In this document: in pieces, positions 35,003 through 38,015 of the stretch
Position numbering within the stretch: the stretch's first letter is position 1
Layout of the letters: each line of letters starts with the position of its first letter
Source: Escherichia coli
GTDB taxonomy: Bacteria > Pseudomonadota > Gammaproteobacteria > Enterobacterales > Enterobacteriaceae
Reading direction: 5' to 3' (one strand)
DNA: 64,000 bases
NCBI RefSeq assembly: GCF_030013595.1
Contig: NZ_CP122768.1
The notes under the pieces: model-generated
Seen by the model: the letters and a program-made list of their open reading frames with translations, nothing else
What the model was told of the DNA's origin: nothing
Databases searched by the model: none
Position numbers and translations under genes: made by a program

Positions 35003-36541
35003 ATGGCTTTTGCCTCATTAATTGAACGCCAGCGCATTCGCCTGCTGCTGGCGTTATTATTCGGTGCCTGCGGAACGCTGGCCTTCTCTCCTTACGACGT
35101 CTGGCCTGCGGCGATTATTTCGCTGATGGGGCTTCAGGCGCTGACCTTTAACCGCCGTCCACTCCAGTCTGCCGCTATTGGCTTTTGCTGGGGATTTGGC
35201 CTCTTTGGCAGCGGTATTAACTGGGTCTATGTCAGCATCGCGACCTTTGGCGGAATGCCTGGCCCGGTTAACATCTTCCTGGTGGTACTGCTGGCGGCGT
35301 ATTTGTCGCTGTATACCGGATTATTTGCTGGCGTGCTGTCGCGTCTGTGGCCGAAAACCACCTGGCTGCGCGTGGCGATTGCCGCCCCTGCTCTCTGGCA
35401 AGTGACCGAGTTTCTGCGCGGTTGGGTGCTGACTGGTTTCCCGTGGTTACAGTTCGGCTATAGCCAGATTGATGGCCCGTTAAAAGGGCTGGCACCGATA
35501 ATGGGCGTGGAAGCCATTAACTTCCTGCTAATGATGGTTAGCGGCCTGCTGGCACTGGCGTTGGTCAAACGCAACTGGCGTCCGATGGTGGTGGCCGTCG
35601 TGCTGTTCGCCCTTCCCTTCCCGCTGCGTTACATCCAGTGGTTTACCCCGCAACCGGAGAAAACCATTCAGGTTTCGATGGTTCAGGGCGATATTCCGCA
35701 ATCGCTGAAGTGGGACGAAAGCCAGCTTCTTAATACGCTGAAAATTTATTACAACGCAACGGCACCGCTGATGGGCAAATCATCGTTGATTATCTGGCCG
35801 GAGTCGGCGATAACCGATCTGGAAATTAATCAGCAACCGTTCCTCAAAGCACTGGACGGTGAGTTGCGTGATAAAGGTAGCTCGCTGGTCACCGGGATTG
35901 TCGACGCGCGTCTCAATAAGCAGAACCGCTACGATACCTACAACACCATCATCACGCTGGGTAAAGGTGCGCCGTACAGCTACGAATCAGCCGATCGCTA
36001 TAACAAAAACCATCTGGTGCCGTTTGGCGAGTTTGTCCCGCTGGAGTCGATTCTGCGTCCGTTAGCACCGTTCTTTGATCTGCCGATGTCGTCGTTCAGC
36101 CGTGGGCCATATATCCAGCCGCCGCTGTCGGTGAATGGTATTGAGCTTACTGCGGCCATTTGCTATGAGATCATTCTCGGCGAGCAAGTGCGCGATAACT
36201 TCCGCCCGGATACCGACTACCTGCTGACTATCTCCAACGATGCGTGGTTTGGTAAATCTATTGGTCCATGGCAACACTTCCAGATGGCGCGAATGCGTGC
36301 GCTGGAGCTGGCGCGCCCACTGTTGCGCAGCACCAACAACGGCATTACGGCGGTGATTGGCCCGCAGGGTGAGATTCAGGCGATGATCCCGCAGTTCACC
36401 CGCGAGGTGTTAACCACTAACGTGACGCCGACTACCGGACTTACACCGTACGCACGTACCGGCAACTGGCCGCTGTGGGTGCTGACGGCACTGTTTGGTT
36501 TTGCTGCTGTGCTGATGAGCCTGCGTCAACGACGTAAATAA
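35003..36541 (+). CDS. lnt: Apolipoprotein N-acyltransferase Lnt (512 aa)
   Basis: ORF 35003..36541; N-terminal polytopic domain plus C-N hydrolase domain. Confidence 0.95.
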
Positions 36542-36584
36542 TCCCTTCTTATCGTGCCGGAATACATCCCGTATTTCGGCACGC

Positions 36585-36620
36585 TCACCGGATGCGGCAT
36601 CAGTGCGTTATCCGGATAAC
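36585..36620. repeat. REP-like palindrome downstream of lnt (preceded by a hairpin at 36553-36583)
   Basis: CCGGATGCGGCATCAGTGCGTTATCCGG; upstream hairpin GTGCCGGAATAC...GTATTTCGGCAC. Confidence 0.6.
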
Positions 36621-36640
36621 AAAATTCCCCTTTCCAACTT

Positions 36641-36656
36641 TGGCACATCTATTGCT
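36641..36656 (+). promoter_or_regulatory. Candidate sigma54 (-24/-12) promoter element upstream of gltI
   Basis: TGGCACatctaTTGCT fits TGGCAC-N5-TTGCW with correct GG-to-GC spacing. Confidence 0.5.
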
Positions 36657-36937
36657 TTGTTATACAAGGCAAAGCTTGAACCAGCATCAGTACAACCCGG
36701 TTGCACCACAGCAATCCACGGGTAGCACCAAAAGAGTGCATTTTAAGAATTTTGCTTCGGAATGGTGCGGCGCATCTCGCAAAAACAAACAATAAAACAG
36801 CAATATCTTTACATTTAGCCAAACTAAATGTTACCTAACAGGCACAACACTGCACAATAAAGTTGCAGACGATAACAACACAAACACTCACAACGGGTAT
36901 CCATGCGTTCTTAACGCAGAAGATAAAGGAGTTGGAT

Positions 36938-37846
36938 ATGCAATTACGTAAACCTGCCACAGCAATCCTCGCCCTAGCGCTTTCCGCAGGACTGGCACAG
37001 GCAGATGACGCCGCCCCGGCAGCGGGCAGTACGCTGGACAAAATCGCCAAAAACGGTGTGATTGTCGTCGGTCACCGTGAATCTTCAGTACCTTTCTCTT
37101 ATTACGACAATCAGCAAAAAGTGGTGGGTTACTCGCAGGATTACTCCAACGCCATTGTTGAAGCAGTGAAAAAGAAACTCAACAAACCGGACTTGCAGGT
37201 AAAACTGATTCCGATTACCTCACAAAACCGTATTCCACTGCTGCAAAACGGCACTTTCGATTTTGAATGTGGTTCTACCACCAACAACGTCGAACGCCAA
37301 AAACAGGCGGCTTTCTCTGACACTATTTTCGTGGTCGGTACGCGCCTGTTGACCAAAAAGGGTGGCGATATCAAAGATTTCGCCGATCTGAAAGGCAAAG
37401 CCGTAGTCGTCACTTCCGGCACTACCTCTGAAGTTTTGCTCAACAAACTGAATGAAGAGCAAAAAATGAATATGCGAATTATCAGCGCCAAAGATCACGG
37501 TGACTCTTTCCGTACCCTGGAAAGCGGTCGTGCCGTTGCCTTTATGATGGATGATGCTCTGCTGGCTGGTGAACGTGCGAAAGCGAGGAAACCAGACAAC
37601 TGGGAAATCGTCGGCAAGCCGCAGTCTCAGGAAGCCTACGGTTGCATGTTGCGTAAAGACGATCCGCAGTTCAAAAAGCTGATGGATGACACCATCGCGC
37701 AGGTGCAGACCTCCGGTGAAGCGGAAAAATGGTTTGATAAATGGTTCAAAAACCCAATTCCGCCGAAAAACCTGAACATGAATTTCGAACTGTCAGACGA
37801 AATGAAAGCACTGTTCAAAGAACCGAATGACAAGGCACTGAACTAA
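36938..37846 (+). CDS. gltI: Glutamate/aspartate periplasmic binding protein GltI (302 aa)
   Basis: ORF track 36863..37846; start at internal Met (MQLRKPATAILALALSAGLAQA signal peptide). Confidence 0.93.
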   Translation: MQLRKPATAILALALSAGLAQADDAAPAAGSTLDKIAKNGVIVVGHRESSVPFSYYDNQQKVVGYSQDYSNAIVEAVKKKLNKPDLQVKLIPITSQNRIPLLQNGTFDFECGSTTNNVERQKQAAFSDTIFVVGTRLLTKKGGDIKDFADLKGKAVVVTSGTTSEVLLNKLNEEQKMNMRIISAKDHGDSFRTLESGRAVAFMMDDALLAGERAKARKPDNWEIVGKPQSQEAYGCMLRKDDPQFKKLMDDTIAQVQTSGEAEKWFDKWFKNPIPPKNLNMNFELSDEMKALFKEPNDKALN

Positions 37847-37849
37847 TTA

Positions 37850-38002
37850 CAAGAACCAGGGGCGGAAATTCCAGCCCTCTCGATTGTTACGTAGCACGGA
37901 CAGACTATACGCCTGATGGTCGTTCCCCATCGGGCCTGAAAACCGCAATACGCTGGGTAACAATCTTCGAGGGTAGCAGTTAACGCTGCTACCCTCTTTT
38001 TT
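37850..38002 (+). ncRNA. sroC: sRNA SroC (gltI 3'UTR / gltI-gltJ intergenic), approximate 5' end
   Basis: 169-bp intergenic region ending in a strong intrinsic terminator (GAGGGTAGCAG-TTAACG-CTGCTACCCTC + TTTTTT at 37969-38002); location matches where SroC lies in K-12. Confidence 0.6.
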
Positions 38003-38015
38003 CTGGAGTAGATTT

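What the first reader, a model, noticed from the sequence alone, without database searches (positions are those of the whole stretch)
36641..36790. Sigma54-type -24/-12 element and NtrC-like half-sites between lnt and gltI
TGGCACatctaTTGCT (36641-36656) fits the sigma54 consensus with correct spacing, about 280 bp upstream of gltI. Downstream of it lie GCACCA/TGGTGC motifs (36703-36708, 36725-36739, 36776-36781) resembling NtrC half-sites. The glutamate/aspartate ABC operon is reported to be nitrogen-regulated in K-12. The arrangement is unusual (enhancer-like sites downstream of the core element, long 5' UTR), so either the architecture is atypical or one motif is coincidental.
Basis: partly seen in the sequence, partly recalled or inferred. 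Interest (0 to 1): 0.45.

Follow-up and report, generated by a model that had tools for sequence, protein, structure and literature searches.

The report
Known nitrogen-regulated gltI promoter, enhancer downstream
This is the already documented sigma-54/NtrC nitrogen-starvation promoter of the E. coli glutamate/aspartate transporter operon gltIJKL; the only unusual point is that its activator-binding sites lie downstream of the promoter, an arrangement found in all 80 related species examined.

Summary
The motifs are real. TGGCACatctaTTGCT (36641-36656) is the only perfect sigma-54 match in the window. Three NtrC-type sites follow it: A 36702-18, B 36724-40 and C 36753-69.

This is not new biology. 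The same 17-mer is a published sigma-54 ChIP-seq site in E. coli K-12, and its Salmonella orthologue is a ChIP-chip site. NtrC ChIP-seq and in vitro SELEX both hit this spacer. gltI (ybeJ) falls in rpoN mutants of CFT073 and EDL933. The operon is described as having sigma-70 and sigma-54 promoters.

My addition is comparative. All 80 Enterobacteriaceae species examined carry TGGCAY-N5-TTGCW about 290-440 bp upstream of gltI. In every one the NtrC-like cluster lies downstream of it. The cluster is locked without indels to an A-rich block and a sigma-70-like promoter. So neither motif is coincidental, and the atypical layout (sigma-54 promoter, then enhancer, then sigma-70 promoter) is conserved.

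The most likely mechanism is that NtrC~P loops back from about +44, +66 and +95 to activate the distal promoter, giving an mRNA with a leader of about 271 nt. Downstream (3') enhancers have precedent in Caulobacter. K-12 carries IS5 between these elements and gltI; this window does not. Interest is low to moderate.

The parts
36641..36656 (+). Sigma-54 -24/-12 core promoter, TGGCACatctaTTGCT. GG is at 36642-43 and GC at 36654-55. The predicted start is at about 36667.
   Evidence: Exact consensus match. TGGCA and TTGC are at least 95% conserved in 82 aligned sequences while the N5 spacer varies. Published sigma-54 ChIP-seq and ChIP-chip site. The start site is inferred, not mapped.
36702..36718 (.). 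NtrC-like site A, TGCACCAcagCAATCCA. The left half, GCACCA, is invariant; the right half is degenerate. Its centre is at about +44 from the predicted sigma-54 start.
   Evidence: GCACCA is at least 95% conserved. The A-to-B spacing is 22 bp in 79 of 82 sequences.
36724..36740 (.). NtrC-like site B, AGCACCAaaaGAGTGCA, a full dyad. Its centre is at about +66.
   Evidence: 3 mismatches to TGCACCA-N3-TGGTGCA in the window and 1-4 mismatches in all 82 sequences. Family consensus is AGCACC-N5-gGTGCA.
36753..36769 (.). NtrC-like site C, TGCTTCGgaaTGGTGCG. The right half, TGGTGCG, is invariant. Its centre is at about +95.
   Evidence: The B-to-C spacing is identical in 82 of 82 sequences.
36776..36842 (+). 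Highly conserved block. It holds an A-rich UP-like tract, then a sigma-70-like promoter with -35 TTTACA at 36808-13 and a -10-like TTACCT at 36831-36 preceded by TG. The inferred proximal start is at about 36843.
   Evidence: Most columns are at least 95% conserved. The distance from site C to TTTACA is invariant in 82 of 82 sequences. The literature states the operon has sigma-70 and sigma-54 promoters. The simple promoter scan did not call it. The start site is not mapped here.
36850..36868 (+). Small stem-loop, CTGCAcaataaagtTGCAG, in the leader. It scored as a fourth NtrC-like match but is a hairpin.
   Evidence: Different genera keep a hairpin with different stems: CUGCA/UGCAG, CUGCC/GGCAG, CUCGC/GCGAG, GUUGCGC/GCGCAAC.
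36874..36894 (+). C/A-rich leader segment, AACAACACAAACACTCACAAC. This is the published GcvB sRNA target and translation enhancer of gltI.
   Evidence: Sequence. GcvB binding to a C/A-rich 5' UTR site of gltI is described.
36938..37846 (+). gltI (ybeJ), the periplasmic glutamate/aspartate binding protein and first gene of gltIJKL. The Shine-Dalgarno AAGGAG is at 36926-31.
   Evidence: ORF and annotation.
35003..36541 (+). lnt, the upstream gene on the same strand. It ends 99 bp before the sigma-54 element.

Best explanation
This is the distal, nitrogen-regulated promoter of gltIJKL.

Sigma-54 RNA polymerase sits as a closed complex on TGGCAC-N5-TTGCT (36641-56). Under nitrogen limitation, phosphorylated NtrC binds the three phased sites A, B and C (36702-69). 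These sites lie downstream of the core promoter, centred at about +44, +66 and +95. NtrC oligomerises there and loops back 60-115 bp to drive open-complex formation.

Transcription then starts near 36667. It reads through the enhancer and through the proximal sigma-70 promoter (-35 at 36808) into gltI-sroC-gltJKL. The resulting mRNA has a leader of about 271 nt that still carries the GcvB target. The sigma-70 promoter supplies expression when nitrogen is plentiful.

Shown by published experiments: sigma-54 occupancy, NtrC occupancy of this spacer, rpoN-dependent expression, and nitrogen induction of the operon's 3' product SroC that is blunted when IS5 intervenes.

Shown here: family-wide conservation of the element, of the three sites and of their order.

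Inferred: which bases NtrC contacts, that it activates from the downstream side, and the start site.
For: Sigma-54 binding:
- E. coli ChIP-seq site OS04, motif TTGGCACATCTATTGCT, enrichment 21, flagged as predicted in EcoCyc.
- Salmonella ChIP-chip site TGGCACGTCTATTGCTTT upstream of gltI, with gltIJKL up 1.8-fold under a promiscuous activator.

NtrC binding:
- ChIP-seq peak assigned to gltIJKL, 55-fold. Mapped onto the window through the OS04 motif centre, it spans about 36646-36726.
- In vitro gSELEX peaks for both the RpoN holoenzyme and NtrC in the insH/lnt spacer.

Expression:
- ybeJ is down in rpoN deletion mutants of CFT073 and EDL933.
- The operon is stated to have sigma-70 and sigma-54 promoters. 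SroC is nitrogen-induced in Salmonella, O157 and O111 but only marginally in K-12, which has IS5 upstream of gltI.

- 80 of 80 species have TGGCAY-N5-TTGCW at -287 to -439 from the ATG.
- NtrC-like sites occur at fixed offsets downstream and nowhere consistently upstream.
- A-to-B is 22 bp in 79 of 82 sequences and B-to-C is invariant.
- Site consensus sequences match NtrC half-sites.
- In most genera lnt ends only about 45-130 bp upstream of the element, leaving little intergenic room for a canonical upstream enhancer.
- The divergent E. coli haplotype that carries a rhomboid-protease gene keeps a sigma-54 element (TGGCATgtaagTTGCT) at the same 61-bp distance from site A.
Against: - No transcript start has been mapped at about 36667 in anything I could read.
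- The ChIP resolution cannot place NtrC upstream or downstream. NtrC peak centres fall within about 20 bp of the sigma-54 motif centre even at glnK and glnH, whose NtrC sites I recall to be upstream (my knowledge, not checked here).
- The NtrC cluster is spaced more rigidly to the downstream sigma-70-like promoter (0 indels in 82 sequences) than to the sigma-54 element (5 length classes).
- Sites A and C are each only half good.
- The textbook position for NtrC sites is 80-150 bp upstream.
- The length classes of the sigma-54-to-enhancer spacer (about +12, +22.5, +31, +34.5 bp) fit whole helical turns only loosely. My estimate is p about 0.1 for four events.
Confidence: 0.75

Rival explanations
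1. The NtrC sites belong functionally to the proximal promoter. They sit at about -82, -111 and -133 from the inferred proximal start. From there they would either act as a canonical upstream enhancer for an unrecognised second sigma-54 promoter or modulate the sigma-70 promoter. On this reading the distal sigma-54 element is served some other way or is only a poised binding site.
For: Spacing from site C to the -35 hexamer TTTACA is invariant in 82 of 82 sequences, whereas spacing to the distal sigma-54 element varies. The distances to the proximal start resemble what I recall for glnAp2 (sites near -108 and -140; my knowledge, not checked here); the order sites-then-promoter is visible in the glnA probe. 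A sigma-54-like string, AGGCACaacacTGCA, lies at 36840-54.
Against: In that string GG and GC are one base too close, and the GG is poorly conserved (30-40%). No other GG-N10-GC is conserved in the proximal block. Sigma-54 ChIP-seq reports only the distal motif. NtrC is described as acting exclusively at sigma-54 promoters. The invariant spacing is also expected simply because sites A-C, the A-tract and the promoter abut with no neutral DNA between them.
Confidence: 0.12
2. The working enhancer is upstream, in the 3' end of lnt or in the REP-like region. The downstream NtrC-like sites would then do something else, such as acting as a roadblock or insulator on read-through from lnt or from the distal promoter.
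For: This would be the canonical geometry. A weak dyad, TTCACCCGCGAGGTGCT (4 mismatches), occurs in the lnt coding sequence of 9 of the 82 sequences scanned. The gSELEX peak coordinate (688,560) maps nearer the lnt end, though at low resolution.
Against: That dyad has 5 mismatches in this window. It sits at variable distances (-205 to -336) and lies in conserved coding sequence. DNA immediately upstream of the element is not conserved. In many Escherichia genomes that DNA is replaced by a 1.9-kb gene without loss of the promoter. The ChIP-seq peak for gltI is offset downstream, not upstream.
Confidence: 0.08
3. One of the two motifs is a chance match.
For: Within the window alone, matches with up to 1 mismatch to the sigma-54 pattern and up to 3 mismatches to the NtrC dyad occur at chance frequency.
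Against: Both motifs are conserved in position and sequence in all 80 species while flanking and spacer bases drift. Both proteins are experimentally found at this locus.
Confidence: 0.03

Closest known systems
glnAp2 of glnALG, the paradigm NtrC/sigma-54 promoter, paired with the sigma-70 promoter glnAp1
   Same: The -24/-12 element is of the same type (glnA has TTGGCACAGATTTTCGCT). It has multiple NtrC dyads, including AGCACTATATTGGTGCA and a weak TTTTGCACGATGGTGCGCAT that closely resemble gltI sites B and C (glnA probe sequence). Both operons pair a sigma-70 promoter with a sigma-54 promoter and respond to nitrogen limitation.
   Different: In the glnA probe the NtrC sites lie upstream of the sigma-54 element; that they overlap the upstream sigma-70 promoter is from my knowledge. 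Here the order is reversed: sigma-54 promoter, then NtrC sites, then sigma-70 promoter. The enhancer is therefore transcribed. Site spacing is 22 and 29 bp here against 32 bp between the two strong glnA sites (counted).
Caulobacter crescentus FlbD/ftr flagellar promoters with 3' enhancers
   Same: These are natural sigma-54 promoters activated by an NtrC-family protein bound downstream of the start site. [quoted passage not shown]
   Different: Different activator, regulon and phylum. In at least one case the ftr elements serve divergent units. I read only the titles, so distances were not compared.
Relocated NtrC enhancers (Reitzer and Magasanik 1986; Ninfa et al. 1987)
   Same: These experiments showed that NtrC sites still activate glnAp2 when moved far from the promoter, including to the downstream side. 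This is from my own knowledge; the papers were not held in the library.
   Different: Those were engineered constructs. Here the downstream position would be the native, conserved state.
Other NtrC-dependent amino-acid ABC transporter promoters (glnHp2, argTp, hisJp)
   Same: Same regulon and same physiological logic of scavenging nitrogen-rich amino acids. All are listed together as NtrC/sigma-54 operons.
   Different: Reviews describe those enhancers as lying 80-150 bp upstream, often with IHF. No IHF site was identified here.

Membership tests
Sigma-54 (RpoN) -24/-12 promoter | GG and GC doublets at the exact consensus spacing within TGGCAC-N5-TTGCW | tested here: met
   Zero mismatches at 36641-56. 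The same spacing is present in all 82 sequences.
Sigma-54 (RpoN) -24/-12 promoter | Purifying selection on the two elements but not on the spacer | tested here: met
   TGGCA and TTGC are at least 95% conserved, while spacer positions are 40-90% conserved.
Sigma-54 (RpoN) -24/-12 promoter | Occupancy by sigma-54 holoenzyme in vivo | not testable with these tools
   Published: E. coli ChIP-seq site OS04, Salmonella ChIP-chip and in vitro gSELEX.
Sigma-54 (RpoN) -24/-12 promoter | rpoN-dependent expression of the downstream gene | not testable with these tools
   Published: ybeJ is down in rpoN deletion mutants of CFT073 and EDL933, and up 1.8-fold with a constitutive activator in Salmonella.
Sigma-54 (RpoN) -24/-12 promoter | Transcript 5' end about 12 nt after the GC, at about 36667 | not tested
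   No mapped start was found in the papers I could read.
NtrC (NRI) enhancer | 17-bp dyad TGCACCA-N3-TGGTGCA | tested here: met
   Site B has 3 mismatches here and 1-4 in the 82 sequences. Sites A and C each keep one perfect half-site.
NtrC (NRI) enhancer | Two or more sites at fixed spacing that allows oligomerisation | tested here: met
   A-to-B is 22 bp in 79 of 82 sequences and B-to-C is identical in 82 of 82.
NtrC (NRI) enhancer | Located about 80-150 bp upstream of the sigma-54 promoter it serves | tested here: not met
   All conserved sites lie downstream, centred at about +44, +66 and +95. No conserved site lies upstream.
NtrC (NRI) enhancer | NtrC occupancy | not testable with these tools
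   Published ChIP-seq peak and gSELEX peak. Their resolution is too low to assign individual sites.
Sigma-70 promoter (proximal gltI promoter) | -35 and -10 hexamers 16-18 bp apart | tested here: inconclusive
   TTTACA-N17-TTACCT is preceded by TG and an A-tract and is very highly conserved. The -10 is weak and the consensus scan did not call it. The literature states that a sigma-70 promoter exists.

The most novel reading that the evidence does not exclude
The gltI control region may be a natural, family-wide conserved case in enteric bacteria of an NtrC enhancer working from downstream of its sigma-54 promoter. The enhancer would sit inside the transcribed leader, between a sigma-54 and a sigma-70 promoter. 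The promoter-to-enhancer spacer would be tolerated only in roughly whole-helical-turn lengths (84, 96, 107, 115 bp). If this geometry has not already been described, for example in Reitzer and Schneider 2001, which I could not read, it would be a ready-made natural system. It could be used to study how an activator ring reaches sigma-54 from the downstream side and how polymerase then transcribes through its own enhancer.
Probability: 0.3. Interest if true: 0.45.

Novelty: already known. Interest (0 to 1): 0.25.

Why it matters
The element explains nitrogen-starvation induction of glutamate/aspartate uptake and of the SroC sponge RNA made from the same transcript. It also explains why K-12, with IS5 wedged between these signals and gltI, responds poorly.

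The one point of wider interest is architectural. Most described sigma-54 enhancers are upstream. A conserved downstream enhancer in model enterics would be a convenient test bed for looping geometry and for transcription through an occupied enhancer.

For genome annotation the practical lesson is that gltI has two promoters, and that the regulatory region extends almost to the lnt stop codon.

Tried and rejected
- **Second, canonical sigma-54 promoter near gltI.** AGGCACaacacTGCA at 36840-54 has the doublets one base too close and its GG is poorly conserved. Rejected.
- **Fourth NtrC-like match.** TGCACAATAAAGTTGCA (36851-67) is a hairpin that different genera maintain with different stems. 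It is not a protein dyad.
- **Upstream enhancer in lnt or the REP-like region.** I scanned up to about 400 bp upstream of the element (700 bp upstream of the ATG) in 82 sequences. The only hit was a weak dyad in coding sequence at variable positions. Rejected as the conserved enhancer.
- **Using ChIP-seq coordinates to place NtrC.** NtrC peak centres are +20 (glnK), -11 (glnH), +10 (rutA) and +38 bp (gltI) from the sigma-54 motif centres. The data therefore cannot resolve upstream from downstream sites.
- **Consensus promoter and terminator scan of 36500-36960.** It found nothing.
- **Rfam scan.** It found only sroC.
- **Helical-phase test on spacer length classes.** The result is suggestive only (my estimate p about 0.1).
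- **Papers not held.** I could not obtain Reitzer and Schneider 2001, Zimmer 2000, Sharma 2007 or Zinser 2003. I could therefore not check whether the downstream NtrC sites or the mapped starts are already described there.

Full report
**What is in the sequence**

The window carries lnt (35003-36541, +) followed by gltI (ATG at 36938, +). Megablast places it in E. coli.

TGGCACATCTATTGCT lies exactly at 36641-36656. It is the only perfect match to TGGCAC-N5-TTGCW in the 64 kb.

Three NtrC-type sites follow it on the same DNA:
- Site A: TGCACCAcagCAATCCA, 36702-18.
- Site B: AGCACCAaaaGAGTGCA, 36724-40.
- Site C: TGCTTCGgaaTGGTGCG, 36753-69.

The third (36776-81) reads CTCGCA; the real TGGTGC is at 36763-68.

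Single motif matches of this quality are not rarer than chance within the window. However, the three half-sites form the only such cluster in the window.

**What is already published**

The sigma-54 element:
- The identical 17-mer, TTGGCACATCTATTGCT, is site OS04 in the E. coli K-12 sigma-54 ChIP-seq map. Its enrichment is 21, and it is listed upstream of insH3 and flagged as a predicted promoter in EcoCyc.
- The Salmonella orthologue, TGGCACGTCTATTGCTTT, was recovered by sigma-54 ChIP-chip upstream of gltI. gltIJKL rose 1.8-fold with a promiscuous activator.

NtrC binding:
- NtrC ChIP-seq in nitrogen-starved E. coli gives a 55-fold peak assigned to gltIJKL.
- In vitro genomic SELEX finds both the RpoN holoenzyme and NtrC in the insH/lnt spacer.

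Expression:
- ybeJ (= gltI) is one of the few genes down-regulated in rpoN deletion mutants of CFT073 and EDL933. It is described there as transcribed from a known sigma-54 promoter.
[quoted passage not shown] It also reports that nitrogen induction of the operon's 3' product SroC is marginal in K-12 because of an IS5 upstream of gltI, but clear in Salmonella, O157 and O111.

The finding is therefore a rediscovery of a known regulatory element.

**The K-12 complication**

In MG1655, IS5D sits 103 bp upstream of the gltI ATG. Direct comparison shows it inserted at the CTAA at window 36835-38, with target duplication. That position is immediately after the -10-like hexamer of the proximal promoter.

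The sigma-54 element and NtrC sites are intact in K-12 but lie 1.2 kb further from gltI. This is why the K-12 studies list insH3 as the downstream gene. The window has no IS5.

A scan of one genome per species returned 80 gltI loci from about 25 genera of Enterobacteriaceae.

- Every locus has TGGCAY-N5-TTGCW between -287 and -439 from the ATG, mostly -290 to -300. The two elements are invariant and the spacer is variable.
- NtrC-like dyads recur at fixed offsets downstream of the element: A at +61/62, B at +83/84 and C at +112/113 from the T of TGGCA. No site recurs upstream.
- In an 82-sequence alignment, A-to-B is 22 bp in 79 of 82. B-to-C and C-to-TTTACA are identical in 82 of 82.
- The site consensus sequences are nGCACCA..., AGCACC-N5-gGTGCA and TGCCTc..AAtGGTGCG.
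- All length variation lies between the sigma-54 element and site A. The distance from the element to site B falls into five classes: 83-85 bp (69 sequences), 96-97 (5), 107 (4), 115-116 (3) and 119 (1). The increments are near whole helical turns. With about four independent events this is only suggestive.
- In most genera lnt ends about 45-130 bp upstream of the element.
- Within Escherichia, about two thirds of complete genomes carry a 1.9-kb rhomboid-protease gene inserted there. They nevertheless keep a sigma-54 element, TGGCATgtaagTTGCT, at the same 61 bp from site A.

Both motifs are therefore under selection, and their unusual order is ancestral to the family.

**Rest of the leader**

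- 36776-36842 is the most conserved non-coding stretch. It contains an A-rich tract and TTTACA-N17-TTACCT (TTAACA or TAACAA in other genera). I take this to be the sigma-70 promoter that the literature mentions. The simple scan did not call it, and its start site is not mapped here.
- The NtrC-like match at 36851-67 is a hairpin that different genera keep with different stems.
- The C/A-rich GcvB target lies at 36874-94.
- sroC lies at 37842-38004.

**Mechanism**

The best-supported reading is that NtrC~P bound at A, B and C activates the distal sigma-54 promoter by looping back from the downstream side. The site centres are at about +44, +66 and +95, that is 60-115 bp from the promoter centre. 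From memory (not checked here), that resembles the distances at glnAp2 in mirror image. The transcript then runs through the enhancer and the sigma-70 promoter.

Engineered downstream NtrC sites are known to work (my knowledge; the papers were not held). Natural 3' enhancers exist for Caulobacter FlbD promoters, though I saw only the paper titles.

The main rival is that the sites serve the proximal promoter, to which they are rigidly spaced at about -82, -111 and -133. Three points weaken this rival:
- The proximal region has no correctly spaced or conserved -24/-12 element.
- Sigma-54 ChIP reports only the distal motif.
- NtrC is described as acting only at sigma-54 promoters.

ChIP-seq cannot settle the geometry. 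NtrC peak centres fall within about 20 bp of the sigma-54 motif at glnK, glnH and rutA too. The gltI peak is offset 38 bp downstream, which is consistent but not decisive.

**Verdict**

The residual novelty is the documented, family-wide conservation of a downstream enhancer placed between two promoters. I could not establish whether that detail is already in the older literature.

Interest is low to moderate.

Noticed in passing
window 36542-36692; L002 1-700: About two thirds of complete E. coli genomes match the query only from 36693 onward. They carry a 1,878-bp 'rhomboid family intramembrane serine protease' gene between lnt and gltI, divergent from gltI. Among the 80 species loci this gene is present only in two Escherichia loci (E. 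whittamii, Escherichia sp. MOD1-EC7003). This haplotype has a different sigma-54 spacer (TGGCATgtaagTTGCT) at the same distance from the NtrC sites.
   Followed up: partly
window 36835-36838 (CTAA); L001 2352-3501, L005 1-146: K-12 MG1655 has IS5D inserted at this CTAA with target duplication. The site is directly after the -10-like hexamer of the proximal gltI promoter. The insertion separates both promoters and the NtrC sites from gltI by 1.2 kb. The window lacks it.
   Followed up: yes
window 36776-36842: This is a near-invariant 67-bp block across about 25 genera: TCGCAAAAAyAAACAAT...AGCAAAATCTTTACA...AACTAAATGyTAACA. It is more conserved than the NtrC sites. It includes an ATA-N9-TAT string (36792-36806) that fits the Nac consensus as I recall it, but this is low-information in AT-rich DNA. 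What binds here besides polymerase is not established.
   Followed up: partly
window 36850-36868: A stem-loop, CTGCA-N9-TGCAG, lies just after the inferred proximal start. Other genera keep a hairpin with different stems, which looks compensatory. It may be a 5'-terminal stabilising hairpin of the short gltI mRNA.
   Followed up: partly
window 36691-36705: A conserved near-palindrome, TACAACCCGGTTGCA (family consensus tgCAACcngGTnGCA), overlaps the left half of NtrC-like site A. It could be a fourth, differently spaced NtrC-type site or a site for another factor.
   Followed up: no
window 36553-36620: A 13-bp-stem inverted repeat, GTGCCGGAATACa...CGTATTTCGGCAC, lies just after the lnt stop. 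It is followed by a REP-like CCGGATGCGGCATCAGTGCGTTATCCGG. The region is not conserved outside Escherichia. It probably holds the lnt terminator and a REP remnant.
   Followed up: no
window 37842-38004: The sroC sRNA (Rfam RF00369, 174.8 bits) overlaps the last 5 bases of gltI, as expected for the GcvB sponge processed from this operon.
   Followed up: yes
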